A stretch of DNA of 64,000 nucleotides, from contig CH464491.1 of assembly GCA_000002445.1 (NCBI GenBank), positions 1,056,001-1,120,000 of the forward strand, in the 5' to 3' direction. How positions within the stretch are numbered: position 1 is the first letter of the stretch; every line of letters begins with the position of its first letter. This document shows, piece after piece, positions 39,101 through 62,726 of this stretch. Made by a program: the position numbers and the translations under genes. This DNA comes from Trypanosoma brucei (lineage: Eukaryota). Under the pieces are notes generated by a model that saw only the letters and a program-made list of their open reading frames with translations, did no database searches and had not been told where the DNA came from.

Positions 39101-40601
39101 GTCTCATAGTTCAACCCCCGGTGGATCCTTATTTCCCTCCCTTAAAGGCAACCAGAACGTGAATTCCTCCTTTTGCGATGCTGATGAACCGAAGGTTAAG
39201 AGTAATGGGTGTCTACCAAAGGAACCTATGGTTTTGGACGGATCGTCACATGTGCCGTCGTTGAATGCCCTTCTCCGTGATGTTTCTCATGGAAAACTTC
39301 AACTGGACACAGAACACGTGGTTAGTGGCGAACTAGTTTTGGCAACCTGTCCACACCACTCGTACAAAATGCCTTCCAGTTTTTGGTCCATATCATCGTG
39401 GATTTCTTGGCTTTGGTTTGGAGGAGCGCAGCGCGCAGATGGTTGTGTGGACCGGCACTTGGGCGAGATTCAATCAGCAGGAGTGGTTCTCTGGCCCCCT
39501 ACTGGTGAAAGGAACAAACAAGGAGACGAGTCCCACAGCGAACTAGGCGGAGAACGTTCTAGTGCAGACTACAAACCTACAGCAGTTTGCAGTATTGCAA
39601 AAAATTGGGCCAGAGGTCTTTACTTTCTTAGCAAGTTGAAGGACAGCGGGGGCAACTTAAACTGCGACGACGCGACCAACGGTTGTGGTGATGGTACTAA
39701 ACAACGGGAAGTGGACGTTATGCACCCCGTGGGGCAATCTGCGTTTGTCCCCATTTTTGGTTTCGTCGGTTCAGGTGGTGACTGCTTGGGTGAAGATGGT
39801 TTGTTTGACAACGAGGGGTGCATGAAGGGAGCACCTGCCGCTGAATCCTTAAGGCACGCTGGTGGGCGTGTGGTCCTTTTTACTGATTCCAATAGTTTCA
39901 GTGATTTGCCACACAGCGCAGCCACACTGCATCGGCTGAACCTGTTAATCTATGACACGTCGAGGCTACTCTCTCGGTCGAGTACAGAAACTTCCTTTGC
40001 AATTGATATTTCTCATAAAATTGAGGCTATAGTGCGTGAAGAGAGTTTTCAACCCTCCCTCTCACTGGGCCTCATTGGCGACTTTGTGAGTTTCCTCCAC
40101 AATGGAGGGACAAAGAACTTTATGCAGGGCGTTGACTGTCGCCGTTCGGACGGTACGAGTCTGGGACATCATTGGAATGATATCTCGACCTCCGAAAAGG
40201 CAGAAAATGGCGGACGGGACGGTCTCCATGCTGCAAATGAGGAGGATAAGGCGAGTTTGCTTGCCCTTCGTTTATTTCAGGGTGCGCCGCAGCGGGTTGC
40301 GATAGCTGAGAGGGTTCGTGCCGTTTTAGTTGACTGGGAAGCGGCCATTGCCTCTGAAGCTGATTATGCTGAGACAGATGCGGTGATTACAGATGGAGAT
40401 TGTAATGGTTCATTTTTCGTTCAAACCGCGGATTCGAGGAAACTGTGGTCTAATTGTACGTACGGCGGTGAGGGAGTTAATATGATACTTTGGACGCACA
40501 TACTGGGTCTAACATTTACGACGTTAGTACTGTATGCGACCAATTGCCTCCGATGCCTGTTGGAGAACATGAAGGTTGTGGCAGTGGAACCATCTGAGTA
40601 G
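36138..40601 (+). CDS. subtilisin-like serine peptidase (MEROPS S8), type I membrane protein with ~1000-aa C-terminal extension
   Basis: Signal peptide MTCIQENITGLLFLCCCLSLSLWVLSTCKA|HADG. Catalytic D191 (VAVLDNGVD, nt 36708). H238 (DSHGTFS, nt 36849). Oxyanion N360 (AAAGNDG). S476 (SHGTSVATALVAGVAALC, nt 37563). C-terminal TM helix ILWTHILGLTFTTLVLYATNCL followed by a short tail. The rest is unrecognisable. Confidence 0.85.
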   Translation: MTCIQENITGLLFLCCCLSLSLWVLSTCKAHADGETAEPNTSCSYMLMLDCLLHPEATEVATRRLQKTNRWKWWRSGLPSGSEVHVHPPPAPFGTWNDFLLMDVRSPLCGKLSGNVMESEISGTSFALPTVGRVIVLRVVEDRWVPKEFTRTHSIESRGDKLSRWRYPRQYLRLRTALRWSGLGVRVAVLDNGVDAALLPQRDVEGIPNSAGEKSDWSVALCRSFVPDVPCENRRDSHGTFSVSVTAGNISLTSNLRSSEGFGNQTTSFTDGSTAEEMPAVSKHYVGVAPGSTVGMFRVFDDARGSKTSWLVSALNDVLQWRADVVSLAFGGTDNMDTIFTEKIRVLAMSGVVVVAAAGNDGPTMGTIHNPADQAEVLAVGSLGTVNCHIVANAMTAHPGHDDREGNCTDSRDQRWVSQFSGRGPSTVEFPFGAGRVRPDILALGEHVVGVGRVMEKFGMSGEERVLGLQVSHGTSVATALVAGVAALCIEALRTLGDGTRVNVALVKGLLIETAVELVPNTESLNSVERVLMQERKKYSSQGAGSWSTEGDAFLNGKRRRTLDGVDMVHTLFHYRNVLQFSRLSQGGGEVCPTCALSRIEQRAHEYDRLLEVFAFPKAVDATGDHHLPHGGKGPAAATLGPCLLNWPYCEQPLFPSAAPIAFNLTLHNARCESSRLNLISPNVTISGAEGFCSMNRVCEPGYLGAEIAQQLVLVRADASLVMSAHSGWLSLFALSPANASTTQIPPPTSAAESNSPDSFALDRYDLITVIGSVRLAYLCTASGEHQKANADVDESGGVRSVTVPFKLPVVRRPSRLERVGFDMSHQWFYPPGQVPDDDIRQERHVLHYRRGNGRLRGHAVRSRSGEKRCGAYECESDHLYTNMALFFLYLRRVLGLFVEQPLLTYLPFGVSKINGVGGVNAKRDVKNVSVAALKRYYGNIGTLILFDLELPLLRMERTLISDAVRYEKLHLLVVSEWFSRSIARGTSSHSSTPGGSLFPSLKGNQNVNSSFCDADEPKVKSNGCLPKEPMVLDGSSHVPSLNALLRDVSHGKLQLDTEHVVSGELVLATCPHHSYKMPSSFWSISSWISWLWFGGAQRADGCVDRHLGEIQSAGVVLWPPTGERNKQGDESHSELGGERSSADYKPTAVCSIAKNWARGLYFLSKLKDSGGNLNCDDATNGCGDGTKQREVDVMHPVGQSAFVPIFGFVGSGGDCLGEDGLFDNEGCMKGAPAAESLRHAGGRVVLFTDSNSFSDLPHSAATLHRLNLLIYDTSRLLSRSSTETSFAIDISHKIEAIVREESFQPSLSLGLIGDFVSFLHNGGTKNFMQGVDCRRSDGTSLGHHWNDISTSEKAENGGRDGLHAANEEDKASLLALRLFQGAPQRVAIAERVRAVLVDWEAAIASEADYAETDAVITDGDCNGSFFVQTADSRKLWSNCTYGGEGVNMILWTHILGLTFTTLVLYATNCLRCLLENMKVVAVEPSE

Positions 40602-46101: not shown

Positions 46102-47038
46102 CTGGATTAGTGTAAGTTAACTTCTTATGTGAGAGAGCGCAACCATCTGAATGAAACGCGATAGGAAAATATGTTCTGTGATCGCGTTGTGCAAGGGGAT
46201 GGAGAGCATTAACGGGCCTGTTCATATTCTGGTCGGATGTTGAGGCAATCTAAACTGGCCAACGGTTTCACGGTCTGCTGCTGGGTGAAACGAAGCACAA
46301 ACGACAGAACCAACGCAAGATAGGAACCGTTCCTCCCCCTGCTGCAGTATAGGGCGAGTGAAGATGAACAGGGAATGTGGTTTGTCTGTTGTTTACTCCG
46401 GTGCTGCGTCTTTGGTTGTGCTATACAAGCACAGGTGTGTGTGTGTGTGGAAGGGAACTGCTGGGTGAGTGTTGTGGAAGCCATTGTGCGGATGTTTGCG
46501 TCACCATTTGGTTTCCCCATTAATCGTTAACTAAGCGCAAACTGAATAATGACTTTGTCCACCCTTTACCTTTGTGAACAAGTATTTCCCTCTTTTTCCC
46601 CCTTCCTGCACTGCATTTGGTGGAATAGGGTGAGGAAAGGGATCACATTGGATGGAGGACGCGCAGGTAAGGGGTCTCTAACTTTTCCGTAAAGAAAAAA
46701 CTTTCCAGCAACAACGTTTGTGATATACCCATTGGTCTAATATCTCTTTTTTCATTCTTTTGTCTTTCTCACTTTAACTTTTTTTTGTTGTAAATGTTTC
46801 GTCGTTTATAGTCGTGGTGCAGAGATTCAGGGAAAGAGTGATTGAGCTGGTTTCCCTATTTTTTTGTCGTGATATTACCCTTACAGGGTGTACCATTTGA
46901 TTATTGCGATCGGCAGTGGGGGAGTCAACTCCAGCGGCGGTCAGACAAGAAAGAACCAACCCGTGGAGAGACAAAGGGAATAGGAGTGAAGAGAGAGCGA
47001 AACACCGAAAGCTTTTGGTACCGCCGAAGTCAAACGGA

Positions 47039-48427
47039 ATGGCCCGTCGGCAACGTGTCCCCCGCATAAAGGAACACCGCAAGAAACGGAATAAGAATCC
47101 AAAATTGTCGCCCTACCAGCGTGAGCTACGGCGAACGAAGCTCGCCAATCAACCACCCATCATGAAAGCCAATGGGCGGGATTGTTCGATTAGCCAGCGG
47201 TCCCTTAGTCAATATCTTGCGGAAAGACATGAACGAGAACAACAGCGCAAACAACGGCGACGCGAAAAGGTGGCGGAGGCGGCGGCAGCGGCAGCATCGG
47301 CGAGTGAAGGACCCGGTGGTGTCGGCACCCCCATTGGCAGTGACTCCACTTCCCTTTCCTCTCCTCCTTTAGTGAACAATGGAAACCTCAGTGATGGCTT
47401 GGGAGAACGCAACAAAAAATCAAAGGTGCTAAAGTTAGCCGCAAAACGAGTTCTCACGGCGGAAAAAGCAGACTCCGGGGTGACTGTTGACACTAAGGCG
47501 GCACCCGTACCTCTCAACGAACAGATTGCTGCGACGCTGGCGCGCCCGGTGCTTGCATTTCGCACTCGCGATGGGAGTGGGGCGGAGAGCATCACAGATG
47601 ATAGCAAGGAGTCCATCATTGCCAGGAAGAAAGAGAAGAAACATCGCAAGAAGGTGGAGGCTAGGCGGGAGCGACTGCAGGCAAAGTTGCAGGAGATGGA
47701 GAAGCAGCTAGCCGATGAGGTGCTCTCCACAAAAGGAGGTAAGAAACGAAGGAGAGCTGACCCCGTCGATGCGAAAGACATTGCATACGAAAGGATGCTG
47801 AGGAAGATGCAAAAGGAGAAAGCAGCGACTGAGGCGGCGGAGAAACGTGCGGCAGGCAAGAAAGGCAAGAAGACGGTTGATAGCAACAACTTAGATGGAG
47901 TGAAGGAGAGCCGCAAACGAATCAGTTTTGATGATGGTATCTCTGGTACCGAAACAGGTGATGGGCCGCATAGGCCTATGCGCTACCCGAAGGATAAAGG
48001 TGAGGATCAACCTCGTGATTTCTGTGAGTTGGTGGATGTTGTTCGTTATGGGGAACGTGTAGAAGCGCCACCGGTCTTCGACACGGTGCCAAGCCGCAAT
48101 GCTTCCATTACGCGGCTTGCAAGCCGACTGGACCAATCTTCACAGCGCAGTGCGAAGGGGGCAGCGAAAGGTCCACAGTCAGAGCGACTGCGATTGCTTT
48201 CTTCTGTTGGCGGCATGGGTGAGCAAAGGCGGTTGGAGCGTTTAGGATTTGTTCCCGCTGACGGGAGCACCAAAGTAACGCGTGGATCGGGGCAAGCGTT
48301 GTCCAAGGAGGAGGAGATGGAAAGATTGCGATTGAGCGTAGTGGAAGCTTACAGGCGAAATAAGCGTGTTGCTTTGGAGGCGCGAAACGGGACGGATATG
48401 CGTCACCAATTTCCACTTTTCTCCTGA
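47039..48427 (+). CDS. highly basic K/R-rich protein (nucleolar/ribosome-biogenesis-like low complexity)
   Basis: 462 aa from the first ATG (MARRQRVPRIKEHRKKRNK...). The ORF-track start 46904 is TTG, and the intervening in-frame stretch has no ATG. Lys/Arg/Glu-rich with KKEKKHRKKVEARRERLQAKLQEMEKQL. A 5-codon uORF sits at 46794. Confidence 0.5.
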   Translation: MARRQRVPRIKEHRKKRNKNPKLSPYQRELRRTKLANQPPIMKANGRDCSISQRSLSQYLAERHEREQQRKQRRREKVAEAAAAAASASEGPGGVGTPIGSDSTSLSSPPLVNNGNLSDGLGERNKKSKVLKLAAKRVLTAEKADSGVTVDTKAAPVPLNEQIAATLARPVLAFRTRDGSGAESITDDSKESIIARKKEKKHRKKVEARRERLQAKLQEMEKQLADEVLSTKGGKKRRRADPVDAKDIAYERMLRKMQKEKAATEAAEKRAAGKKGKKTVDSNNLDGVKESRKRISFDDGISGTETGDGPHRPMRYPKDKGEDQPRDFCELVDVVRYGERVEAPPVFDTVPSRNASITRLASRLDQSSQRSAKGAAKGPQSERLRLLSSVGGMGEQRRLERLGFVPADGSTKVTRGSGQALSKEEEMERLRLSVVEAYRRNKRVALEARNGTDMRHQFPLFS

Positions 48428-49341: not shown

Positions 49342-52300
49342 ATGGGGCAGCGCTGGCACGACATTCTTATCGCGGGTGATGAAGGTGACCGTTCCTTTAG
49401 TGATGCCGCCCCTTTCGTGGTTGAGGCGCTGGAGATAATATTTCACACCCGGCTGTTACATTCCGGCGTCGGTGTGGAGTGCGACAGCGCGGAGCTCTCA
49501 ACCATCAAAGATGATCACTTGGCGTTTAGGGTTGCACGTAAGGATGTTGAGGCGCTGCGTGGAATGATGGCAACACTTTTGGAGTCCGCCCACGATTCAC
49601 TCTTGACTCTGCAGGCTGCAGACATTTTACCCGACGATTCTGCGGAGAATGCAGTCAATCCTGGTCGTTCCTTATTATCTTGTGACAGAGGTCTCGTTTC
49701 TCCCCGCATCTTGAAGTTAAATCCGTTTCTACGGTCACACCCGACCTTTGACTATAAGGTTTTTCGTGCCAAATTTGAGCGACTCTGTCAAATAGTTGCT
49801 GACGCTCGACTCTTCTCAGCTTGTGAACCGCGGGTTAAGATCCTGCAGAGTCGATATCGGTTGTATCGCGCCTTTAATATGAGGCGAGAAGAACATTTCC
49901 ATCCCACGCTTGGCCCTGGGAATCTCAGGCGTGCCCCCAAGACTGACGTGCGGCGGGTAGGGACATGCATGTCGGCATCATCAGTGGTGGATTTTGTGCA
50001 GAAAACAGTGTCCAATGAGCCAAACCTCGTGCTATCTACCTCAAGCGTGCTTTCCACTGCAACCGACAAGGGCAGAGCCCGCAATCCAATAGGCAGGGGT
50101 TTTACCTCGGAGGTGCAACTGGCGGTACCTCAGCAAACATTTAGCATGCCAACCAAGGATAGTGGCACTCATGACTCTACAGGCGAGCGGACTGTTACGT
50201 TGAAGGCACTTGCTGACGCCTTCTTTGGACCTTCTCTTCCGCCGCAGGATCGGGTCTTCACAATGGAGGGATTGGGACTTCGTTTGAGCAGTTCCAAAAC
50301 AACGTCGCACACGGTTGACATTCTTGAGGCACGTAATGAGCACCATACTGCTGCAAATGCGGTTCCGATCCTGCGACAATTCCTTGACGTTTATAGTGGC
50401 AATGGGGGTGCACTGCTCGGTCGTCTTGTGACGCCGATGATTTCTCGGATATCTCGGAATAAGAAGGATGTGTTGGAGGTTGAATTCACAGTCACTGGCC
50501 ACCGTCCAGGTGAGGTGCAACACATCGCATCTTGGTGTGTTCGCACTGGTTTTTTCGCCTCAGGGGGGAATTGGCCCTCCCTTCGTATCACCATGCGCCC
50601 GTCCGCCGGCGACGGTGGCGAGTGCACGGCAAAAAGCATGGAGGATGTATTGAAACATATATTTGAACCGATTTGGCTCGCACTCCTTTGCCCTGAAAAA
50701 TATCCGGATGTTGCACAACTCTTTCGGCGTCTTGTTTCTGTTTCTGTACTCGTCAGTGGCGAAGCAGGTGTGCAGGAGATGCCCACCGAGGGTGACCCGG
50801 CCATGTACTCCGTGGAGAAGGGTGACATGCCACCTAGTTCGTTTTTCATCTATCACGTTTGGCGCAATGTGCAGCTTTTGAATTGCTTCATCGCGACGCA
50901 TGTCGTTTCTTCCCTGTCGGCGAAAGAGCCCCCTACGTCCACCACAGAGGATGTGAAGGTGGAATTCGGCAACAGTACTGCGCACCCCTCCCACGTACAA
51001 CGGCCCCTGTTCCAGCGCTACGAACCCCTTAAGCGCCAACCACTTCGCTTTCGCCTCTACACATCCGGCACGCGTAAGAAAACGTTCGTCGAAACTGTCA
51101 TTGGTTTACTTGTCACGGACCAGGTGGTTGGCCCTCTGGAGGTCCTTGCATGGAGTTCACTTACGTATTTCTACTATCTAACACAACGTAGCATTGTTGT
51201 GACACCTTACCACACCTACGACAGCACTCCGTACTCGATGCTAAAGCGTGCTATTCCTTTTGCAGTTGAAACAGGACTACGGGTGTCGGTTTCTACAATT
51301 GACCCTCTTTACTTCCACACAAACGAAGAGGCACTGAACGAAGAACTTAACGGTATCATGAAGATCCATCAGGTGAGTACGCCTGAGGTTATGGAGATTT
51401 GTCTCAACTCGGCGGGGTACATCAACTTTGATATTGAGAAGAGGTGTAAGTTTATTGGTGGGCCGTGGCGACGCGTGAGTGCGCAGAACAACAACTTTAC
51501 GGTGACACAGGTGAATTCCCTACGACTGCGCTTTCGTGAGTTGTCTCTCACTCATGAAATGGATCTCTTGTTTCGCAAGGGACTTACTAAGTGGGGCGGA
51601 CACAGCGAAAGCAAGAGACTTTCTGAGGATTTTTTGGTGCATGGTGGTTGGTCGTTACTGGCAACGGGGTCCTCTGCCTCTACCTCAGCGGAGAGACGCC
51701 GGGAGAACCTTTGGCGTTTCTTCGATATTCCACCGCTTCCGGAGAAAGTATCCGGGGCAATGACAATGCCCGGCAGCGGAAGGCGGCTATTTGTGGACAA
51801 ATTGATCAAATTCCCACGCATTGTCGTATTGGGACCGCGAGGTAGAAAAAGAAGTGAAGCACGGTGTGTGGTGGAGGCGCTTCAGCGGCGTGAGTACTAT
51901 AAAGCTTTTACTGTCCATTACGAACTAGCGGCCCCGTTGGCTTCACTGGCAGGTACTGCGGGGGTGGAGGCTTTACTCGCGTCTCAAAGGTCCAGCAGGT
52001 CAAGTGGTCGCGGCTTCACTTCTACGGAAAAGTGGCGGGAGCATCACGATAAGGGGGAGCAAACTCAGCAACCGTCCACGCGAGCGTCCGGTAACATTTC
52101 GTCATCGATTCGTTCATTTTCCTCCCCTGTGGTACGAGAGCAAGGGGTGACAGTCCCCACGACCTTTTGCTTTCGTGATGGGGTGAGGGACGTTGTGGTT
52201 CCTGCAAACGCGAATGCGACAACAAAAGAGTACTTTCGGCCTCTTCCGTCCTGGGCTAAGTTTCAGGCTGACGCAAGACAGTTAAGGGCCCTATCGAGTG

Positions 52301-54018
52301 ATTCATCAATGCTCCGCTACGCAAACCGGCGTCTGGACATGTTGGAATGCAAGTTTAACCTCCATGTAGCGCTTACAAACGACGACCAGGAAACCCAAGA
52401 GGGCCACTTAACAGATATGCTGCGTGAGAAGAGTGACATATACAAGTGTGTTAAGGTGGATGTCCACTGCCATATGGCATCAGGGATGACGGCTAAGGAA
52501 CTTCTTAAATTTATCAAAGAGAAGGTTCGCATGAATCGTAACGATGTGGTGGATATCGATAGGAGTACCGGTTTCCCCATCACATTGGGTGAATTGTTCG
52601 CCAAGATACATGCGGAAAAGCTGAGTGGCACCACATTCGATGTGGAGGACCTGACTATTGCCTCGTTGAACGTTAAGGCTGGGAAGGCAACGTTCAACCG
52701 CTTCGACGTGTTCAACGGGCGGTACAGCCCACTGGGACAATCCGCATTACGTTCACTGCTTCTCAAAACAGATAACTTCATTGGTGGACGCTACTTCGCC
52801 GAACTTATTCGTACTGTGTTTGACCGTCAGGCCGCCGACGGCTACAGCTTCTCCGAATACCGTCTTTCTATTTACGGCAGGTGCCATGATGAATGGGACC
52901 GCTTATCTCGGTGGTTCCTCACCCATGATATGCTGCATCCAACAAATCGTTGGATCGTGCAGGTACCACGGCTTTACGGCATATACCGTCAGAACAAGAT
53001 ATTATCATCCTTCGAAGACCTTTTGACCAACATATTTCTTCCCTTATGGCAGGCCTCCATAGACCCCGAAAAACATCCATTCCTTAACTACTTTCTTGCA
53101 CACGTTAGCGGTTTCGACTTGGTGGACAATGAAAGTGAGCGAGAGACTGACTCGCTGATTAATACCTCCCCTTCACAGTGGACCTCCGTGGAGAATCCTC
53201 CATTTATGTACTGGTTGTATTACATGTGGGCTAACATCACTTCGCTGAACCGCTACCGTGCAGCACGAGGGCTAACCACATTTTCGTTGCGCCCACACGC
53301 GGGTGAGAGTGGCGACCCTGGGCACATGGCCGAGGCATTTCTTGTTGCGGATGGTGTTAATCACGGTATCAACCTTAAGGATACTCCGGTGCTGCAATAT
53401 TTGTATTACCTCGGACAAATACCGCTTGGAATCACCCCCCTTTCCAATAACGCCCTATTTTGCAGGTATAACGAGAATCCCTTTGCACTGTTCTTTCGGC
53501 GTGGCCTCAATGTTGCGCTCTCCACCGATGGGGCGCTCATTTTTCATCACACGGAGGAACCGTTGATCGAGGAATACAGCACTGCTGCAAACTACTGGAA
53601 CTTGTCGCAGGTGGATTTGTGCGAGATTGCCAAAAACAGTGTTCTGATGTCCGGCTTTCCTTCGTACCGAAAGAAAAAGTGGCTTGGGGAGTTGTACGCC
53701 CTGCGCAGTGCAGTCGGCAACGATATGCGTTTGACACGTGTGCCGCAATCTCGCTGCACATTCCGGTATGAGGTATACCTGGAAGAACTGAGCTACCTTG
53801 AGGCAGTGGCATCAAAGGAGGTGTCCCCGAGCCAAATCATGACTTGGCAGTTAGAGGGGTTGTATACGATGACTACCTTGGGTCTTACGCGCGATGAAGT
53901 GATGAAGCAACGACTAAAAAACCAAGGTGTCGGTGAATATGCATCGCCGGTGGAGTCTAGGACGAAAGCAACCACTGTTCTTACGGGGCCAATAATAGTA
54001 GCACCCTCTCGGTTGTAG
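49342..54018 (+). CDS. AMP deaminase (adenosine/AMP deaminase superfamily) with ~950-aa N-terminal extension
   Basis: C-terminal catalytic domain carries AMPD signatures VDVHCHMASGM..LLKFIK (compare [21 protein letters not shown]), EYRLSIYGR, RPHAGESG, and ALSTDGALIFHHTEEPLIEEYSTAA (compare [22 protein letters not shown]). First ATG is 49342 (MGQRWHDIL). Confidence 0.85.
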   Translation: MGQRWHDILIAGDEGDRSFSDAAPFVVEALEIIFHTRLLHSGVGVECDSAELSTIKDDHLAFRVARKDVEALRGMMATLLESAHDSLLTLQAADILPDDSAENAVNPGRSLLSCDRGLVSPRILKLNPFLRSHPTFDYKVFRAKFERLCQIVADARLFSACEPRVKILQSRYRLYRAFNMRREEHFHPTLGPGNLRRAPKTDVRRVGTCMSASSVVDFVQKTVSNEPNLVLSTSSVLSTATDKGRARNPIGRGFTSEVQLAVPQQTFSMPTKDSGTHDSTGERTVTLKALADAFFGPSLPPQDRVFTMEGLGLRLSSSKTTSHTVDILEARNEHHTAANAVPILRQFLDVYSGNGGALLGRLVTPMISRISRNKKDVLEVEFTVTGHRPGEVQHIASWCVRTGFFASGGNWPSLRITMRPSAGDGGECTAKSMEDVLKHIFEPIWLALLCPEKYPDVAQLFRRLVSVSVLVSGEAGVQEMPTEGDPAMYSVEKGDMPPSSFFIYHVWRNVQLLNCFIATHVVSSLSAKEPPTSTTEDVKVEFGNSTAHPSHVQRPLFQRYEPLKRQPLRFRLYTSGTRKKTFVETVIGLLVTDQVVGPLEVLAWSSLTYFYYLTQRSIVVTPYHTYDSTPYSMLKRAIPFAVETGLRVSVSTIDPLYFHTNEEALNEELNGIMKIHQVSTPEVMEICLNSAGYINFDIEKRCKFIGGPWRRVSAQNNNFTVTQVNSLRLRFRELSLTHEMDLLFRKGLTKWGGHSESKRLSEDFLVHGGWSLLATGSSASTSAERRRENLWRFFDIPPLPEKVSGAMTMPGSGRRLFVDKLIKFPRIVVLGPRGRKRSEARCVVEALQRREYYKAFTVHYELAAPLASLAGTAGVEALLASQRSSRSSGRGFTSTEKWREHHDKGEQTQQPSTRASGNISSSIRSFSSPVVREQGVTVPTTFCFRDGVRDVVVPANANATTKEYFRPLPSWAKFQADARQLRALSSDSSMLRYANRRLDMLECKFNLHVALTNDDQETQEGHLTDMLREKSDIYKCVKVDVHCHMASGMTAKELLKFIKEKVRMNRNDVVDIDRSTGFPITLGELFAKIHAEKLSGTTFDVEDLTIASLNVKAGKATFNRFDVFNGRYSPLGQSALRSLLLKTDNFIGGRYFAELIRTVFDRQAADGYSFSEYRLSIYGRCHDEWDRLSRWFLTHDMLHPTNRWIVQVPRLYGIYRQNKILSSFEDLLTNIFLPLWQASIDPEKHPFLNYFLAHVSGFDLVDNESERETDSLINTSPSQWTSVENPPFMYWLYYMWANITSLNRYRAARGLTTFSLRPHAGESGDPGHMAEAFLVADGVNHGINLKDTPVLQYLYYLGQIPLGITPLSNNALFCRYNENPFALFFRRGLNVALSTDGALIFHHTEEPLIEEYSTAANYWNLSQVDLCEIAKNSVLMSGFPSYRKKKWLGELYALRSAVGNDMRLTRVPQSRCTFRYEVYLEELSYLEAVASKEVSPSQIMTWQLEGLYTMTTLGLTRDEVMKQRLKNQGVGEYASPVESRTKATTVLTGPIIVAPSRL

Positions 54019-55657: not shown

Positions 55658-57013
55658 ATGAGGTGGCCACGCGGGACAGTCGCGCTTCACCCCGCTGGTT
55701 TACTTGGGTGCAACTTTGTATCATCGGCGCGGCGCCTTTTGTACTGTTCCTCGGTTCCATTCTCGCTTTACCGCAGCACGCATGGAAGTATGAAGTCGGT
55801 CGCTGCTCAACTAAAGTCCGATTGGGTGTTTATTCGCCGCAGACGAATGGAATCGCCCCCACCCGACCGAACAGAAGGTGAGCAGGCAGTCAGCGCGGAG
55901 GGTGATGACTCCAACGACAATAATAATGCAGCCATGAAGTGTTTTGATCATTGGTCTAGCGATATGAATGGGTGCACTGCCGAGGAGTTTCTGCAGGGCG
56001 CCAAGCAATCGTACCGCAGCCTTGGCGTATTGCTTGAAACCCTTAGGGAGGCTGCTTCGCACAATGGACCGACTGGAAGGCCTGTCGCACGTGAGGTAGC
56101 ACTTGCCAAACTACAGGGTTTACTGTTGAAAAACTATAGTGTGAAGGAAGATATAGTGGGTGAGGCAGTTATTTCTTCGGAGAAGGGATCCGCAAAGGGC
56201 ACAGATGCTTTTCACAAAACAGTTAGCAAGGCACTGAAACAAGTATTACCCCTCTCGCAGGGTCTCTCCGAGCATCTCTCCGAAATGTGGGATAAACAGC
56301 GGACTTTAGATTTCAATATTTTTGATATAGCCGCACCTGATGATTATGTTATCGACGCGGATATGAAACTTTTCAATCCGTTTCTCGTGAAATCCTCTGA
56401 TGATTTGCTGGAATACGCTGCATGGAAAAAAAATGGGGAGGAGTGTCCGAAACCCGTATCGGTTGATGCAACAACTGGAGGTGCCTGCTCCTCCCCTCCA
56501 TTGAAATGTTCGTTCTCCTCTGGAAAGTTTGATCCCGAGAAGGTGGGCGAGCGGGAAACGTGGAGCATTGGGTGTTTACAACGAGTGCTCAAACCAGCCC
56601 CCAAACTCATGCCGATTGCATTTGTTTCACTGGACGTGGTGATGCCCCCACAACGTTACTGTGAAGCCTTCGACTGGTTTTACCAACGCACATGCGGCTA
56701 CTCAAGTGAGTACGAGCGTGTAGAGGCCGCAAGGTTGTACACCAGTCCGAGCTTCTTTTTGGGCATATTTCGTCAGTGTTTGTTTTTGGTGGACTTCGTT
56801 AAGCGAATGTTTGTTGGTCGGCCGCTACAGTTGGACTGCACTCGACTGGTGCAGAAGCTGCATGGCAATTCTGTCGATATTAGACGCAGTCCCCCGGCTG
56901 TACGGAAGTTACTTTGCTTTTACATGGAAGGGGACGGACGCTGGACGCTCTTTGACGTGTTTATCCTTGAGCGCGTTTTGGTTCCGGTCTCCCCGACGGC
57001 TTCAAGCAAATAA
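55658..57013 (+). CDS. hypothetical protein
   Basis: 451-aa ORF, non-repetitive with coding-like codon usage. Alternative start MKSVAAQL at ~55790. No family recognised. Confidence 0.4.
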   Translation: MRWPRGTVALHPAGLLGCNFVSSARRLLYCSSVPFSLYRSTHGSMKSVAAQLKSDWVFIRRRRMESPPPDRTEGEQAVSAEGDDSNDNNNAAMKCFDHWSSDMNGCTAEEFLQGAKQSYRSLGVLLETLREAASHNGPTGRPVAREVALAKLQGLLLKNYSVKEDIVGEAVISSEKGSAKGTDAFHKTVSKALKQVLPLSQGLSEHLSEMWDKQRTLDFNIFDIAAPDDYVIDADMKLFNPFLVKSSDDLLEYAAWKKNGEECPKPVSVDATTGGACSSPPLKCSFSSGKFDPEKVGERETWSIGCLQRVLKPAPKLMPIAFVSLDVVMPPQRYCEAFDWFYQRTCGYSSEYERVEAARLYTSPSFFLGIFRQCLFLVDFVKRMFVGRPLQLDCTRLVQKLHGNSVDIRRSPPAVRKLLCFYMEGDGRWTLFDVFILERVLVPVSPTASSK

Positions 57014-57138: not shown

Positions 57139-58655
57139 GTTATGAGCATCCTTACATTTGAAATCCTTCCGAAAAACAGACGTATATATATACCGTAGTG
57201 CGCGTTTTTATTGCATGGTGGGCGACGCTGATGACGGCAGTGAGAACAACGTTATTGTTTGTGAAAATGTTTTTTAAAGCAATTATTATTCTTTCTCTTC
57301 GTACAGGTATTACCTGCTTTATTTGTATGGCGGAAGAGTAGCAACCGAGGGAGTCGTTAACAAAAAAAAGTGATGTGGAAATGAAAAAAGATTACGTTAA
57401 AAATGAGGGAGGCGAATCAGTGTTACGAATTCTAAGGGATGTCACATATGCGTGTATGTGTTTGTTGTGTGCTCACAAAACTGAAGCGGATCGGTGAGAG
57501 ATGATGGGGTGTGAAATGAACATAAAGGGGAGGTTGAATGGGTTGCAGGAGTGAATGGTGTCGGTGAATAAATAAAAATTCCGAGGTTTTAAAGATCAAG
57601 TTCCATTTTTTCCCAAGGGACGACGATTGTGGCTTCACATGGCAATGCATATATTCCGTGATGTTGGTTCTTAGTTTCCCTTGAGGGGGTTTGTTCTTAA
57701 TTTTCTTGCGTCTTATTCTTTGTTTCGAAAACCTCATAACTCGCAGTGAACGAGCAAATTGGGAGGTTGTTTCTCTTTTCTTTACTCTCCGACCACTTGT
57801 TATGCCGTCCACCTTCGGTTTATTTTCTTTAAAAAGGGAGTTCACATGAGAGAAGAACACTAGCCGGCCGCTCATCAGGTTGACTACGGGATGCCTTGAC
57901 TTTATTATTATTATTATCATTTTGTCCATAAACTCTTGCTTTCACCGTGAACGTGAAGTGATCTGATCTTTTAATTGCTTCACACCAAACCCCCTAATTT
58001 TCTTCTTCCTCCCGCCCGCTCTGATACGACACCGTGTAATTATATCCTGAGCCTGATTTTTACTCTTAACGTCCTTTTTTGTGCCATTTATTTTTCTTGA
58101 ATATACGTTTCCCCGAGGAAGCTTTCTGCACTACTGTTTTTTGTACAAGCAATACATGTATATAAATATGTATATTTTTCCTCCCACCTTTTTCTTTAAT
58201 TTCTTTGCCGAACCTGTACACACGCAAACAATAAATATAAACCGATTACATGCTTTAACGAGTAGAGATCCGTTACGTATTATCACTTCGGATCAGTTCA
58301 CTCCCATATTAGGTGTGAATATATCACACACCTCACCTTCTTTATATAGCTTCCTTGCATAGAACTGCCCTTGTATTGTGTATTAGACCAACACGGGATA
58401 TAATTTCTACGAGATTGGTAAGGTCAATCAGTGGCTAAGTGGAGAAGCAGTGAAAATACAAAGGGGATTTGAATCATAGCTCATTTATTTGTTTTTTCCT
58501 CTTTTCTGGTTCTACCGACCGTCGTAGAAGAGTGTAACGGTATATATATTAATATATCTTTCACTCCTCTCTCTTGCTCGTTGTTTTTTTTTTGATTCCG
58601 CTTGAGCGTGCGCACCATACGAGAGGGAGGAACAGACGGTTTTTTTTTTTGGGAT

Positions 58656-60359
58656 ATGAGTAAAAAGGGTAACATTCGCCTTCAGCCGCTCTCTAATGAT
58701 CCAGAAGGCGCCCCAGGCTCATCGCTCCAGCAGATAAAGGTGCAACAGAAAGCTCGCGAGGATAATGAAAAGATACGACTGAAGCGTGTGAAGGGTGCTA
58801 TCGTACTTATTTCACAATTTCTTCTGGACCAGGGATACGTGGGTTCGCTGCAGATGCTTCAGCAGGAAAGCGGTTTGTCGCTTCAAAAGTTCTCACCAGC
58901 CGATAATATAGATCTCCTCTCCATTATTATGGAATATGAGCAGTATTTTGAATTCCGTTTCAATCGCCGCCCCAAACTGTTTCGAGCCAATGAAGGGGTG
59001 GAAGAGGGTTGTGTAGATGTTCCATCCGGTGGCGAACGCATGGCCGTGCGACGGCGAGGTAATGAGCAACTCGGTGGAAGGCCGAAGCCGCAACCTCTCA
59101 GAGCAAATGGTGGGCCCATAACTTATGGCAATGCCGCCTCTGTGGGTGAAGCACCTCAAAGCACTGCGCAAGAGTTAAAGCGACCAGGTCCTGGTGCACA
59201 GTGTCTCGCCCGTGGTTTGGTATTGGCTCATAAGGCATCTCCTCCATTGGGTCCATCGCCAAGTTCACCACCGGGGTCTAATGCGAGGCGGCCGGTAGTA
59301 ACGGAGTGTCCTTTCGGGTTGGCGGGCATGCGTGTGGAGGCGGCACCGGAGTTTAGTGGGGATGCGGCTGCATGTAGGTCTGACGATGATGGTTTCTTCG
59401 GTCGAGCGCTGAAGCCGCTGCCGCGGTTTCCAACGGTGGAACTACAGGAACTTGCCATGACAATACAACGTGACATCCTCGACAGTAACCCCAATGTGCG
59501 ATGGGGTAGTATAGCGGCGCTAGATGAGGTGAAACGTCTTCTAAAGGAGGCTGTAGTAATGCCCGTCAAATATCCAGAACTGTTTGCGGGTATTGTGCGC
59601 CCATGGAAAGGTATTCTTCTTTTCGGACCTCCTGGAACAGGCAAAACACTTCTTGCGAAGGCTGTGGCGACGGAGTGTCGTACCACATTTTTTAATATTT
59701 CCGCATCTAGTGTTGTGTCCAAGTGGCGTGGCGATAGTGAGAAGTTAGTGCGTTTGTTGTTTGACATAGCTGTTCATTATGCGCCTAGCACTATATTTAT
59801 AGATGAGATCGATTCCCTCATGTCAGCGCGCGGCGGTGAAGGGACGCATGAAGGGTCGAGACGCATGAAGACAGAGTTGTTGATACAAATGGATGGCTTG
59901 TCAAAACGGCGCGGTGGCGAGGTAGTGTTTGTTCTTGCTGCAAGTAACACTCCGTGGGATCTTGATAGTGCAATGTTGCGTCGCTTAGAGAAACGTATTC
60001 TTGTTGGTCTTCCAACGCATGAAGCACGGGCGACAATGTTTCGGCAGATTCTTACTGCATCGGCGGCATCGGCAGATATTGACTGGAATGCATGCGCCGC
60101 GGCTACGGATGGTATGTCAGGCGCTGATATTGATGTCATCTGCCGTGAGGCAATGATGCGGCCCATTCGACTCATGATTGAGAAGTTAGAGGGTGCCGGG
60201 AGTCCATCCGACCTGAAATCAGGTGTAGTTCAACGACCAGTGATCACCATGCAGGATATTATGGCTAGCGTGGCATGTACGCAGAGCAGCGTGCAGCAGT
60301 CGGATTTAAGTAAGTTTGAGGCCTGGGCGCGCAAGTATGGCTCCGGAGCGTCGTCATAA
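58656..60359 (+). CDS. katanin p60-like AAA ATPase with N-terminal LisH motif (KATNAL2-like)
   Basis: N-terminal LisH-like IVLISQFLLDQGYVGSLQMLQQESGL. Meiotic-clade AAA module: Walker [16 protein letters not shown], Walker B IFIDEIDSL, second region of homology VLAASNTPWDLDSAMLRRLEKRI. C-terminal Vps4/katanin-type helix. First ATG is 58656 after a T12 tract. Confidence 0.8.
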   Translation: MSKKGNIRLQPLSNDPEGAPGSSLQQIKVQQKAREDNEKIRLKRVKGAIVLISQFLLDQGYVGSLQMLQQESGLSLQKFSPADNIDLLSIIMEYEQYFEFRFNRRPKLFRANEGVEEGCVDVPSGGERMAVRRRGNEQLGGRPKPQPLRANGGPITYGNAASVGEAPQSTAQELKRPGPGAQCLARGLVLAHKASPPLGPSPSSPPGSNARRPVVTECPFGLAGMRVEAAPEFSGDAAACRSDDDGFFGRALKPLPRFPTVELQELAMTIQRDILDSNPNVRWGSIAALDEVKRLLKEAVVMPVKYPELFAGIVRPWKGILLFGPPGTGKTLLAKAVATECRTTFFNISASSVVSKWRGDSEKLVRLLFDIAVHYAPSTIFIDEIDSLMSARGGEGTHEGSRRMKTELLIQMDGLSKRRGGEVVFVLAASNTPWDLDSAMLRRLEKRILVGLPTHEARATMFRQILTASAASADIDWNACAAATDGMSGADIDVICREAMMRPIRLMIEKLEGAGSPSDLKSGVVQRPVITMQDIMASVACTQSSVQQSDLSKFEAWARKYGSGASS

Positions 60360-61424
60360 TTTCAGTATTTTATTTGCATGCCTCTCCTCTTCACCCTTCA
60401 TCTTCCCTAATTGTTGCTGTTGCGATGCGTGGTCAATCACCTGGTGCAGTAAACACGCGCCATTCCCAGGATTGTGGCGACAGAAAGGCCCGTGTACGGG
60501 GGTTGATTTCGATTTCTTTGTTTTTCTGTTGTGTGGATCGTGTAGCTGGCAATGCCTGTGATCTTCTTGTGCGCGTCTTCTGTTGTCACTGCTCACGCAC
60601 AGGTTGGCGTTGGGCTTTTTTCCCCGCTTGAATGTGCCGTTATTTTTCTTTTTACCCCCTATTCTTTCTTCTACATTACCCCCCCCCCCCCATGTTACTT
60701 GATCGTTTTGTTATATGTGCTGTTGTTTGCAGGCACTTTTGTTGCTTTTGCGAAGCACTCGTTAGGTATAAATATATACATTTAGGGACTACGCATTCTT
60801 TTTGCGACCACTCGAGGGAGCTGTTTTATCTCCCTCTCTCCTCTATTACATTATGTTATTACCGATGGTATTGTTACGGTAAGTTGTTGCTCCCCCCTTT
60901 TTTTTCATGTGCATCTTTCATTGATATGGCACGTTTAAATTCTCTAGTCCTGTGTCGTTGTGGTTGTGGTTGTGGTTTTCTTTCCTTATCTTTTTACTCC
61001 TAAGTGAAAAACGTCTTTTAGCACCTTCATGCGTGTGGGGAAGAGCAGAATCGACTTACCAGTTTTCTCTTCTGCAGTGGTATTTTCTTCACTTTTTGTT
61101 GAAAATTCGAATTATGGTGGGCGTCATCTTTGGAATTAGCGTCTATGATTTCGTCGTCTTTTTTCGGTCACATTGCTCCGTTTCTCGTTCTTCTTTTCAC
61201 GGACTTTCCTCGTATTATCCTCTTCTCTCTTCTCTTGCAACTACTTAATTATTTACTTACTGAAAGTCAGTTAGACACCTGAGAGTGACAAGTTACCGCC
61301 TCGCCAAAAATCATACGTGCAGGGCAAACACTAAACTAGATAATTACTATTACAATTACAATTACCATTTCCTTTTTCGTTATTATTGTTGGGATTACTC
61401 TGTACTCCTTCACCTTTACCTCAA

Positions 61425-62726
61425 ATGGTTTGCAGCACGGAGCGAGCTCCTGTTGTTATTTTAGACGGCGGCTCGCACCACCTCCGCGCCGGTTATGCCA
61501 GTGACGGAGCGCCCCGTTTGGACATCCCCGCACTTGTCGGCCACCCACGTAACCGCGGTGTTGCGGTGGCAGCAGGAATGAATGAATACGAAATTGGCGA
61601 CGTTGCCCTCGCCAAACGCGGGATGTTAACAGTTAGTAGTCCCATCGAGAGTGGCAGGGTGGTAAGTTGGGAAAATATGGAGAAACTGTGGGGCCACGTC
61701 ATGTATTCTGAACTGCGTGTGAGGCCGGAGAGCCATTGTTTTATTGTCCCGCAGTCTGTTAACACACCTGCTTCACAAAAGGAGAAAACACTGGAACTTA
61801 TGATGGAGACATTCCATGTGCATTCGCTCTTCCTGGGCGCATCACAGGTTCTTAGCTTGTATAGCTATGGTCTTACGACAGGGCTGGTGATTGACAGCGG
61901 CAAAGACCGCACAATGGCTGTACCGGTGCATGAGGGTTATGCCCTCGGCCGACACGTAGCGGAGAGTGATGTTGCGGGGGAGAAATTGACAGAGTATTTT
62001 GCTTCACTGCTCCGTCTTGAGGGTTACAGCTTTGGTACACCAATGGAAATGCAAGTGCTCAACAATGCTAAGGAGGATCTCTGTTATGTCAAGCCCCCTA
62101 TATTCAACATGACTGGACCCAGCGCATTCTTTTCCCCATCAGAGTTTCCTGGCGAATGCGACTATGATCTCTCACTTGAAGGCGCGCCTGGCGAAGGGTT
62201 TGAGGATGGTAGAGAGGATCACTCGTCGGATGAAAGAGTTTTTTATCTTCCGGATGGTAATGCCATTCCTATATCAACCCATCGCAGTTTGACGACAGAG
62301 GCTCTCTTCGATTTTGGTATTTTGGGTAGCCAGTACGTACCCAAGTCACGCTACATGACAGAGTTGGGGGAAATATTCCAACCATCGTTTCCCATGGGTG
62401 TTAGTTGGCTCGCATTTGCTGCTATCAACAACTGTCAGCCGGTTATTCGAGCGCAGCTTTATGCTAGTATTGTCCTCTCCGGTGGAAATGTCTCGTTTCC
62501 CGGCACAAGGGAAAGAATAGAAACAGAAGTAACACAGCTCTACAGGGAAACCCACACCAGCGAGGCGGTGACACCCATAGCAGTTAATGATATTCCCTGT
62601 CGCGTGTACAGTGCATGGGTTGGTGGTTCGATGCTCGCAGGCACTTCCATGTTCCCGCATCTTGCTGTCTCACGGCAAGAATATGAAGAACAAGGACACC
62701 GCGTTGTGCACTGCAAGTGCCAGTAG
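61425..62726 (+). CDS. actin-related / actin-like protein (divergent, with insertions)
   Basis: APVVILDGGSHHLRAGYASDGAPR matches the actin N-terminal phosphate-1 loop (DNGSG..KAGFAGDDAPR). C-terminus YSAWVGGSMLAGTSMFPHLAVSRQEYEEQGHRVVHCKC matches actin [39 protein letters not shown]. First ATG is 61425. Confidence 0.75.
   Translation: MVCSTERAPVVILDGGSHHLRAGYASDGAPRLDIPALVGHPRNRGVAVAAGMNEYEIGDVALAKRGMLTVSSPIESGRVVSWENMEKLWGHVMYSELRVRPESHCFIVPQSVNTPASQKEKTLELMMETFHVHSLFLGASQVLSLYSYGLTTGLVIDSGKDRTMAVPVHEGYALGRHVAESDVAGEKLTEYFASLLRLEGYSFGTPMEMQVLNNAKEDLCYVKPPIFNMTGPSAFFSPSEFPGECDYDLSLEGAPGEGFEDGREDHSSDERVFYLPDGNAIPISTHRSLTTEALFDFGILGSQYVPKSRYMTELGEIFQPSFPMGVSWLAFAAINNCQPVIRAQLYASIVLSGGNVSFPGTRERIETEVTQLYRETHTSEAVTPIAVNDIPCRVYSAWVGGSMLAGTSMFPHLAVSRQEYEEQGHRVVHCKCQ

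What the first reader, a model, noticed from the sequence alone, without database searches (positions are those of the whole stretch)
49342..54018. AMP deaminase paralog with substitution in the catalytic STDDP motif (reads STDGA) and a ~950-aa N-terminal extension
The catalytic-domain motifs are present: H-x-H (VDVHCHM), HAGE (RPHAGESG) and the first Asp of the STDDP motif. The second Asp is Gly (gat ggg at 53527-53532), and the following Pro is Ala. In the adenosine/AMP deaminase superfamily (ADA SLNTDDP Asp295/Asp296) the second Asp contacts the purine. By established knowledge of that family this copy could be a catalytically impaired pseudo-enzyme or have altered specificity. The extension has no recognisable domain.
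Basis: partly seen in the sequence, partly recalled or inferred. Interest (0 to 1): 0.5.

Follow-up and report, generated by a model that had tools for sequence, protein, structure and literature searches.

The report
Glycosomal two-unit AMP deaminase, altered site
This Trypanosoma brucei gene encodes the glycosome-targeted "AMP deaminase", which is two fused AMP-deaminase copies: the first is catalytically dead, and the second keeps its zinc site but lacks an aspartate that contacts the substrate, so it may not be an ordinary AMP deaminase.

Summary
Window 49342-54018 (+) encodes a 1558-aa protein identical to T. brucei TREU927 "AMP deaminase, putative" (XP_828464.1). Its C-terminal AMPD domain reads STDGA where AMPDs read STDDP. 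G1397 aligns to Arabidopsis D737, which is Asp in 109 of 109 canonical AMPDs.

Gly is fixed in all 14 kinetoplastid orthologs examined, from Bodo to Leishmania, Phytomonas and Trypanosoma. Diplonemid orthologs keep DDP.

The "extension with no recognisable domain" is wrong. Residues ~130-746 are a degenerate second AMPD unit (Pfam 2.7e-28; hhalign 99.9%) that has lost all its metal ligands. Two-unit AMPDs are the rule in Euglenozoa.

The protein ends in SRL, a PTS1 signal, and its T. cruzi ortholog was found in glycosome proteomes. Trypanosomatids also carry a slower-evolving, non-PTS1 paralog with a fully canonical second unit.

The same Asp mutated to Ala inactivates Plasmodium AMPD. Yet here the six zinc and catalytic residues stay invariant, unlike truly dead units, which lose three or more.

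Best reading: an attenuated or re-specified deaminase with a built-in pseudo-subunit. A fully dead pseudoenzyme is the main rival. Only an enzyme assay can decide.

The parts
49342..54018 (+). Complete CDS, 1558 aa plus stop. Identical to T. brucei brucei TREU927 'AMP deaminase, putative' XP_828464.1 / UniProt Q386C9.
   Evidence: the N-terminus is conserved in orthologs
49342..51579 (+). Unit 1: degenerate, catalytically dead AMP-deaminase unit (aa 1-746; HMM-supported core aa ~130-746). Residues 5-40, 'WHDILIAGDEGD...VVEALEIIFHTRLL', resemble the AMPD N-terminal 'FQRV.I.G...AL.IR.KY' motif (read by eye).
   Evidence: Pfam E 2.7e-28; 2A3L E 7.6e-22, collinear; BLASTP against unit 2, 2e-19; hhalign Prob 99.9, E 1e-31
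49939..49965 (+). Unit 1 remnant of the HxH zinc site: KTDVRRVGT. Both His positions are Arg.
51043..51081 (+). Unit 1 remnant of the RPHxGE region: LRFRLYTSGTRKK. The third zinc His and the catalytic Glu are lost, and the position varies among orthologs (Y/H/G/C).
51292..51306 (+). Unit 1 remnant of STDDP: STIDP. The zinc-binding Asp is replaced by Ile.
51580..51804 (+). Poorly conserved linker between the two units (aa 747-821).
51805..53826 (+). Unit 2: AMP-deaminase unit (aa 822-1495). It starts with 'FPRIVVLGP...VVEALQRREYY'. The catalytic barrel spans aa ~943-1495.
   Evidence: Pfam E 9e-216; 2A3L 3.3e-146 and AMPD2 1.5e-142; AF2 model pLDDT 79.5, pTM 0.83; Foldseek target-normalised TM-score 0.87-0.89 to 8HU6 and 0.86 to 2A3L
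52459..52473 (+). DVHCH: zinc ligands H1042 and H1044 (AtAMPD H391/H393). V1041 replaces the near-universal Thr in this clade only.
53293..53307 (+). PHAGE: zinc ligand H1319 and catalytic E1322 (AtAMPD H659/E662).
53359..53373 (+). NHGIN: catalytic H1341 (AtAMPD H681).
53521..53535 (+). STDGA. D1396 is the zinc ligand (AtAMPD D736). G1397 replaces the substrate-contacting Asp (AtAMPD D737, PfAMPD D595). A1398 replaces Pro.
53461..53463 (+). C1374: a clade-diagnostic Leu->Cys in 'NNALFC'. It is 14/14 in the Gly clade and Leu in 109/109 canonical AMPDs. The other diagnostic residues are W971 (52252-52254) and F1288 (53203-53205).
54007..54015 (+). C-terminal SRL, a PTS1-type glycosomal targeting tripeptide.
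   Evidence: The S-x-L ending is conserved in orthologs while the preceding tail is not. Literature: PMC7082770 and PMC9512073 Table S2.

Best explanation
This is the T. brucei glycosome-targeted member of a euglenozoan family of two-unit AMP deaminases.

Shown: the protein is a head-to-tail fusion of two complete AMPD units. Unit 1 has lost all four zinc ligands and cannot be a deaminase. Unit 2 has the AMPD fold and keeps every zinc and catalytic residue (H1042, H1044, H1319, E1322, H1341, D1396). It has Gly where all other AMPDs have the Asp that contacts the bound nucleotide. The protein ends in the PTS1 tripeptide SRL. The Gly, together with four other clade-specific changes (L->W971, T->V1041, Y->F1288, L->C1374), is fixed across kinetoplastids, while diplonemid PTS1 orthologs keep Asp.

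Inferred: the protein is imported into glycosomes via SRL. Unit 1 serves as a built-in non-catalytic partner of unit 2, standing in for a second subunit of the normally oligomeric enzyme. Unit 2 still binds zinc and a nucleotide, and its metal centre is still used. Canonical AMP->IMP turnover is strongly weakened, or the substrate preference has shifted. On this reading it is an attenuated or re-specified deaminase kept under selection, not an inert relic. Bulk cellular AMP deamination would then fall to the separate, slower-evolving, non-PTS1 paralog whose second unit is fully canonical.
For: - Identity, architecture and motifs.
- Gly is fixed in 14/14 kinetoplastid orthologs, including Bodo, Leishmania, Phytomonas, Strigomonas and five Trypanosoma. 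Asp is present in 109/109 canonical AMPDs, 14/14 trypanosomatid canonical paralogs and 8/8 PTS1 orthologs that keep DDP (diplonemids and unnamed relatives).
- An NJ tree places the Gly clade as a single group next to the diplonemid PTS1 group.
- Among 340 AMPD-like units, losses among the six zinc/catalytic residues are bimodal: 251 units with none, 7 with one or two, 82 with three or more. The kinetoplastid clade supplies 15 of the 20 units that keep all six yet lack the second Asp. Only 28% of unit-2 columns are invariant in the clade, so all six staying invariant is unlikely without selection on them (0.28^6 is about 5e-4, treating positions as independent, which they are not fully).
- The same residue matters in true AMPDs: PfAMPD D595A is inactive (10.1101/447789). 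Both Asp residues of STDD lie within 3.1 A of coformycin 5'-phosphate in 2A3L (PMC3042610).
- Glycosomal location: the SRL ending, with an S-x-L or PTS1-like ending in nearly all orthologs, and detection of the T. cruzi ortholog Tc00.1047053511857.80 in purified glycosomes.
- A canonical paralog exists in all trypanosomatids and in Bodo.
Against: - No activity data exist for this protein or any ortholog in the literature I could search.
- D->A at this position kills PfAMPD. From memory, mouse ADA D296A keeps about 0.001% of kcat/Km; the D296A structure 1FKX is listed.
- No new conserved acidic residue appears that could replace the lost carboxylate.
- Two of the co-fixed changes (T->V, Y->F) remove hydroxyl groups. 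That looks like dismantling a hydrogen-bond network rather than compensating for it (my inference, no coordinates available).
- Unit 2 evolves much faster than unit 2 of the canonical paralog: T. grayi vs T. vivax is 68% against 91% identity.
- Unit 2 retains 70% of canonical conserved positions. That is only modestly above dead clades (63-65%) and below the canonical paralog (78%).
- Pseudoenzymes can keep a metal site purely for folding or ligand binding.
- The proposed role of unit 1 as an intramolecular partner is untested. The AF2 model of unit 1 failed (pLDDT 38.9).
Confidence: 0.5

Rival explanations
1. Fully dead pseudoenzyme. Neither unit catalyses deamination. The protein persists in glycosomes as a nucleotide-binding sensor, scaffold or regulator, comparable to trypanosomatid 'prozymes' or to the kinetically inactive glycosomal APRT2.
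For: - PfAMPD D595A is inactive.
- No compensating carboxylate has appeared, and hydroxyl-bearing neighbours have been lost.
- Evolution is faster than in the canonical paralog.
- Retention of canonical positions is only slightly above that of dead clades.
- A canonical paralog exists that could supply all AMPD activity.
- Precedent: T. brucei glycosomal APRT2 has no measurable activity (PMC8836349). Dead paralogs are recurrent in trypanosomatids. Other T. brucei-group AMPD paralogs are clearly dead, for example T. congolense P0014.
Against: - All six zinc and catalytic residues, including the non-ligand E1322 and H1341, are invariant from Bodo to Trypanosoma. Units that are clearly dead almost always lose three or more of them.
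- The second-shell Asp (AtAMPD D598 = D1259) is also invariant in the seven Trypanosoma sequences.
Confidence: 0.3
2. Ordinary AMP deaminase. The second Asp is dispensable in this sequence context, and the protein performs normal AMP->IMP conversion inside glycosomes, as current pathway maps assume.
For: - Unit 2 keeps the AMPD fold and the full metal and catalytic set.
- The pathway logic fits: HGPRT, IMPDH, GMP reductase and adenylate kinase also carry PTS1 signals.
- From memory, some other amidohydrolase-superfamily deaminases have Gly after the zinc-binding Asp and are active.
Against: - Asp is invariant at this site in 109/109 canonical AMPDs.
- The direct mutant in PfAMPD is inactive.
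- No replacement residue is evident.
- Constraint is relaxed relative to the canonical paralog.
Confidence: 0.15
3. Artefact: a misalignment, a sequencing error, or a decaying pseudogene.
For: None found.
Against: - The 1558-codon ORF is intact.
- The motif is the same in independent assemblies and subspecies.
- Three independent alignment methods agree.
- Orthologs are conserved across the class.
- The T. cruzi ortholog was detected as protein.
Confidence: 0.01

Closest known systems
Canonical eukaryotic AMP deaminase (Arabidopsis FAC1/AMPD, PDB 2A3L; human AMPD2, PDB 8HU6)
   Same: Unit 2 is 36-38% identical to these in the structural alignment. It has the same fold (Foldseek target-normalised TM-score 0.86-0.89) and the same HxH, H..E and H residues and zinc Asp. 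It keeps the ribose-facing Phe and Tyr and the second-shell Asp.
   Different: The second Asp of STDDP is Gly. Four further near-universal residues are changed (W971, V1041, F1288, C1374). A whole dead AMPD unit is fused upstream. A PTS1 signal sits at the C-terminus.
Trypanosomatid non-PTS1 two-unit AMPD paralog (e.g. L. donovani P0153, 1480 aa; T. brucei equiperdum P0291; T. cruzi P0286; Bodo P0295)
   Same: Same architecture: a dead unit 1 followed by unit 2. Same taxa.
   Different: Its unit 2 is fully canonical (DDP), it has no PTS1 signal, and it evolves much more slowly (unit 2 89-97% identical among Trypanosoma, against 67-78% here).
Diplonemid PTS1 AMP deaminases (Diplonema papillatum P0243, ending AKL; Artemidia motanka P0157, ending ARL)
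   Same: They have a degenerate N-terminal AMPD-like unit, unit 2 and a PTS1 signal, and they form the nearest group in the NJ tree.
   Different: They keep STDDP, and also Thr, Tyr and Leu at the positions that changed in kinetoplastids. Unit 1 is shorter.
T. brucei glycosomal APRT2 and trypanosomatid prozymes (AdoMetDC, DHS, PRMT1)
   Same: These are paralogs of metabolic enzymes with impaired or absent catalysis that are nonetheless retained. APRT2 is also a glycosomal purine-salvage isoform whose cytosolic paralog does the work.
   Different: Here the dead copy is fused in cis to a copy that is almost intact. No activating heteromer has been shown, and no activity has been measured.
Apostichopus japonicus AMPD2-like paralog P0036
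   Same: An independent D->G (STDGP) in a duplicated AMPD, with all other catalytic residues kept.
   Different: A single-unit metazoan protein with no PTS1 signal. It is 75% identical to its canonical neighbour. Nothing is known about its function.

Membership tests
AMP deaminase (Pfam PF19326; EC 3.5.4.6) | Significant match to the family profile across the catalytic domain | tested here: met
   Unit 2 scores E 9e-216, 718 bits against a cutoff of 27. Unit 1 scores E 2.7e-28, 99 bits.
AMP deaminase (Pfam PF19326; EC 3.5.4.6) | AMPD-type (beta/alpha)8 amidohydrolase fold | tested here: met
   For unit 2: the AF2 model has pLDDT 79.5 and pTM 0.83, and its best PDB matches are 8HU6 and 2A3L with target-normalised TM-scores of 0.86-0.89. 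For unit 1 the model was unusable (pLDDT 38.9), so support comes from sequence only.
AMP deaminase (Pfam PF19326; EC 3.5.4.6) | Four zinc ligands (HxH, the His of PHxGE, the first Asp of STDDP) | tested here: met
   Unit 2 has H1042, H1044, H1319 and D1396. Unit 1 has lost all four (R204, R205, a variable residue, and I653).
AMP deaminase (Pfam PF19326; EC 3.5.4.6) | Catalytic Glu and His (AtAMPD E662, H681) | tested here: met
   E1322 and H1341 are present in unit 2 and invariant in 14/14 orthologs.
AMP deaminase (Pfam PF19326; EC 3.5.4.6) | Second Asp of STDDP (AtAMPD D737), which contacts the substrate and is invariant in the ADA/AMPD clade | tested here: not met
   G1397 occupies this position. 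Asp is present in 109/109 canonical AMPDs. PfAMPD D595A is inactive.
AMP deaminase (Pfam PF19326; EC 3.5.4.6) | Catalyses AMP + H2O -> IMP + NH3 | not testable with these tools
   No assay of this protein or any ortholog was found in the searchable literature.
PTS1-targeted glycosomal matrix proteins | C-terminal tripeptide of the [SAC][KRH][LM] type | tested here: met
   The protein ends in SRL. Orthologs end in SKL, SRL, SQL, SHM, SLL, SSL, GRL or SNL, while the preceding ~40 residues are unconserved.
PTS1-targeted glycosomal matrix proteins | Experimental localisation to glycosomes | not testable with these tools
   Literature only. The T. cruzi ortholog (Tc00.1047053511857.80, ending SRL) was found in a glycosome proteome, and the paper states that AMPD was detected in glycosome proteomes of other trypanosomes (PMC7082770).
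Trypanosomatid prozyme-type pseudoenzymes | Loss of catalytic residues in a retained paralogous copy | tested here: met
   Met for unit 1 (all metal ligands lost, yet conserved among orthologs). Only one substrate-contact residue is lost in unit 2.
Trypanosomatid prozyme-type pseudoenzymes | The dead copy activates a catalytic partner by forming a complex with it | not testable with these tools
   No structure of the two units together could be modelled, because the protein exceeds the size limit and the unit 1 model failed.

The most novel reading that the evidence does not exclude
Kinetoplastid glycosomes may contain no conventional AMP deaminase. Their 'AMPD' would instead be a cis-fused pseudo-subunit plus a remodelled catalytic unit. 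That unit would either act on a different nucleotide or work as a deliberately detuned valve that protects the small, closed glycosomal adenylate pool. The same D->G change arose independently in a sea-cucumber AMPD2 duplicate, so 'Gly-type' AMPD paralogs could be a recurrent functional class rather than accidents.
Probability: 0.2. Interest if true: 0.7.

Novelty: new variant of a known kind. Interest (0 to 1): 0.5.

Why it matters
Purine salvage is essential in trypanosomatids, and pathway maps place AMP->IMP conversion in the glycosome on the strength of this gene's annotation. If the glycosomal copy is attenuated, re-specified or dead, as was recently shown for glycosomal APRT2, then the glycosomal arm of adenine-nucleotide interconversion needs redrawing. 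The slower-evolving non-PTS1 paralog would become the relevant enzyme and drug target.

The two-unit architecture is present in every euglenozoan AMPD paralog examined here. Truncated gene models hide it in T. cruzi CL Brener (791 aa) and Bodo saltans (668 aa). It offers a natural series of alive/dead domain combinations for studying how pseudoenzymes arise.

The question can be tested directly with a recombinant enzyme assay and a single G1397D reversion.

Tried and rejected
- AF2 model of unit 1 from a six-sequence alignment was unusable (pLDDT 38.9). Homology of unit 1 therefore rests on profile methods.
- I first concluded that the organism was absent from NCBI, because the word-indexed search listed only a Logan representative. 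An exact cluster look-up showed the protein is T. brucei TREU927 XP_828464.1. That search tool is not complete: the search with unit 2 did not return the orthologs P0001-P0006.
- I suspected that loss of the phosphate-pocket Lys (AtAMPD K462, window V1123) belonged to the Gly-clade remodelling. It is Asn in the canonical trypanosomatid paralog and in diplonemids as well, so it is euglenozoan-wide and not informative.
- Retention of canonical conserved positions does not separate active from dead units well (70% here, 63-65% in dead clades, 78% in canonical).
- A search for a conserved new acidic residue that could replace the lost Asp found none.
- The tools give no atomic coordinates, so I could not test whether V1041, F1288, T1365 and C1374 surround G1397. 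The unit 2 model shows lower confidence (pLDDT 60-64) in exactly the two ten-residue blocks that contain TPLSNNALFC and TDGALIFHHT. This may only reflect an alignment dominated by canonical sequences.
- Literature searches for a pseudoenzyme description or a biochemical characterisation of trypanosomatid AMPD found nothing.
- The NJ tree has no support values and long branches. I use it only as a suggestion.
Full report
**What is there.** Window 49342-54018 (+) is an intact 1558-codon ORF. An exact-sequence look-up identifies the product as "AMP deaminase, putative" of Trypanosoma brucei brucei TREU927 (XP_828464.1, EAN79352.1, UniProt Q386C9). The same sequence occurs in T. equiperdum, on a 5.26-Mb contig. 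All 17 ORFs of 250 aa or more in the window lie on the + strand. The gene is therefore already annotated. What had not been examined, in any literature I could search, is its active site and its architecture.

**The observation.**
- The C-terminal part is a strong AMP_deaminase match: PF19326, E 9e-216.
- HMMER alignments to Arabidopsis AMPD (2A3L, 3.3e-146) and human AMPD2 (1.5e-142) put 'STDGA' exactly under 'STDDP'.
- Using the chain-to-protein offset of 138, G1397 corresponds to AtAMPD D737 and D1396 to the zinc ligand D736.
- HxH (H1042, H1044), PHAGE (H1319, E1322) and NHGIN (H1341) are all present.
- In an HMM built from 45 canonical AMPDs, the second-Asp column is Asp in 109/109 canonical sequences.
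- An AF2 model of unit 2 (pLDDT 79.5, pTM 0.83) matches AMPD2 (8HU6) and 2A3L with target-normalised TM-scores of 0.86-0.89.

This part of the finding is confirmed.

**The 'extension' is a second AMPD unit.**
- Residues 1-943 alone hit PF19326 at E 2.7e-28.
- They align to 2A3L at E 7.6e-22, in three collinear segments covering chain residues 183-688.
- They match the protein's own C-terminal half at 2e-19.
- A profile of six Trypanosoma N-terminal regions aligns to a profile of 12 canonical AMPDs with 99.9% probability, E 1e-31, over 505 columns. This covers residues 130-741.
- By eye, the AMPD N-terminal motif 'FQRV.I.G...AL.IR.KY' also occurs twice, at aa 5-40 and at aa 823-857.
- The protein is therefore a head-to-tail fusion of two whole AMPD units joined by a roughly 75-aa unconserved linker.
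- Unit 1 is catalytically dead. The HxH positions are R204 and R205. The PHxGE region reads 'RLYTSGT' and varies among orthologs. The HGI His is Gly. STDDP reads STIDP, with the zinc Asp replaced by Ile.
- Unit 1 is nevertheless conserved among orthologs, with invariant blocks such as FFIYHVWRN, YYLTQR and VETGL. It is maintained by selection.

**Orthologs and paralogs.**
- Gly at the second-Asp position, with all six zinc and catalytic residues intact, is found in T. grayi, T. conorhini, T. cruzi, T. vivax, Phytomonas EM1, Leishmania martiniquensis, Strigomonas culicis, Bodo saltans and several unnamed environmental sequences. That is 14/14. One partial relative, P0009, reads TDSS.
- The Bodo gene model is only 668 aa. 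The DNA just upstream, interrupted by runs of N, encodes unit 1 fragments.
- Diplonemid proteins with the same organisation and a PTS1 signal keep STDDP: Diplonema papillatum (ending AKL) and Artemidia motanka (ending ARL).
- A rough NJ tree places the Gly clade as one group beside them. Unit 1 sequences group with other unit 1 sequences, which suggests that the tandem duplication predates the kinetoplastid-diplonemid split (no support values).
- An exhaustive profile search shows that two-unit AMPD-like proteins are widespread in Euglenozoa (Entosiphon, Papus, Diplonema, Namystynia) with many alive/dead combinations.
- Trypanosomatids and Bodo also have a non-PTS1 two-unit paralog whose unit 2 is fully canonical. 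Examples are L. donovani (1480 aa), T. brucei equiperdum (1417 aa) and T. cruzi.
- That paralog evolves far more slowly. Its unit 2 is 91% identical between T. grayi and T. vivax, against 68% for the Gly paralog.
- Other paralogs are dead in both units, for example T. congolense P0014.
- At least one T. brucei AMPD (Tb927.9.9740) localises to the paraflagellar rod and cytoplasm (10.1101/2024.04.19.590284). I did not establish which paralog this is.

**Localisation.** The protein ends in SRL. Every ortholog ends in a PTS1-like tripeptide, although the preceding ~40 residues are unconserved. A published survey lists AMPD PTS1 signals as SRL in T. brucei and T. cruzi, SHL in L. major and SKL in Bodo and two Diplonema species (PMC9512073 Table S2). 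The T. cruzi ortholog was detected in purified glycosomes. It is annotated there as a 791-aa model, Tc00.1047053511857.80, ending SRL (PMC7082770).

**What the Gly means.** Evidence that the change is damaging:
- In PfAMPD, mutating the same residue (D595A) abolished complementation of yeast amd1-delta (10.1101/447789).
- In 2A3L, both Asp residues of STDD lie within 3.1 A of coformycin 5'-phosphate (PMC3042610).
- From memory, mouse ADA D296A retains about 0.001% of kcat/Km through loss of the hydrogen bond to purine N7. The D296A structure 1FKX appears.
- No conserved new acidic residue appears in the clade.
- The only other clade-diagnostic changes are L->W971, T->V1041, Y->F1288 and L->C1374, with S->T/V at position 1365. 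Two of them remove hydroxyl groups. I read this as dismantling of the Asp's surroundings, but that is inference without coordinates.
- Unit 2 is less constrained than its canonical paralog.

Evidence that the site is still used:
- Across 340 AMPD-like units, losses among the six zinc/catalytic residues are bimodal: 251 units have none, 7 have one or two, and 82 have three or more.
- The kinetoplastid clade supplies 15 of the 20 units that keep all six yet lack the second Asp.
- It has held that state since before Bodo diverged, although only 28% of its columns are invariant.
- E1322 and H1341 are not metal ligands, so their invariance is hard to explain by folding alone.

**Conclusion.** I commit to the following reading. 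The protein is a glycosomal, two-unit AMPD in which unit 1 is a built-in pseudo-subunit. Unit 2 is a zinc-containing deaminase whose action on AMP is strongly attenuated or whose specificity has shifted (confidence about 0.5 for the mechanism; above 0.9 for identity and architecture).
- The main rival is a fully dead pseudoenzyme (0.3). It is supported by the parallel with kinetically inactive glycosomal APRT2 in T. brucei (PMC8836349).
- A normally efficient AMPD is less likely (0.15).
- An artefact is excluded.

**Novelty.** The gene and its glycosomal targeting are known. Three things appear not to have been described: the clade-wide active-site change, its absence in diplonemid orthologs, and the fused dead unit. 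This makes it a new variant of a known kind, of moderate interest, and directly testable by assaying the recombinant protein and a G1397D revertant.

Noticed in passing
The S-x-L ending is conserved in orthologs although the preceding ~40 residues are not.
   Followed up: yes
P0153, P0284-P0295 (other genomes; not in the window): All trypanosomatids and Bodo carry a second two-unit AMPD paralog without a PTS1 signal. Its unit 1 is dead and its unit 2 is fully canonical (HxH, H..E, H, DDP). It evolves about three to four times more slowly than the window's paralog.
   Followed up: yes
P0133-P0166 and others: Two-unit AMPD-like proteins are widespread, including in a euglenid, a prokinetoplastid and diplonemids, with every combination of intact and dead units. 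One 7575-aa protein (P0142) carries two dead units at its C-terminus. One group of unknown taxa (P0146, P0154, P0155, P0161, P0162, P0165) has an intact unit 1 and a unit 2 reading DNP or DTP, sometimes with the catalytic Glu lost as well.
   Followed up: partly
P0036 vs P0073 (Apostichopus japonicus): A sea-cucumber AMPD2-like paralog, 75% identical to its canonical neighbour on the same contig, independently reads STDGP. Its other catalytic residues are intact, and it also reads SPLANNCLFL instead of SPLSNNSLFL.
   Followed up: partly
L001 3737-8007 (Bodo saltans CYKH01001969.1); T. cruzi Tc00.1047053511857.80: Public gene models hide the two-unit architecture. The Bodo model is 668 aa because assembly gaps split off unit 1 into fragments. 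The T. cruzi CL Brener model used in the glycosome proteome is 791 aa, against 1522 aa in another T. cruzi assembly (P0004).
   Followed up: yes
P0009 (Logan assembly, partial 455 aa, ends SNL): A 60%-identical relative reads GTDSS at the motif, with Ser instead of Gly at the second-Asp position. The organism is unknown.
   Followed up: no
window aa 1365-1374 and 1395-1404 (53434-53463; 53524-53553): In the otherwise confident AF2 model of unit 2, pLDDT falls to 60-64 in two ten-residue blocks. These are the blocks containing TPLSNNALFC and TDGALIFHHT, the segments that carry the clade-specific substitutions. This could be an effect of the alignment rather than a real structural difference.
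   Followed up: no
window 1-64000: All 17 ORFs of 250 aa or more are on the + strand. Neighbours with Pfam matches are a subtilase-like S8 protein (36138-40601), an AAA ATPase with a Vps4 C-terminal domain (58602-60359) and an actin-family protein (61386-62726). The ORFs flanking the AMPD gene (46904-48427 and 55658-57013) have no Pfam match.
   Followed up: partly
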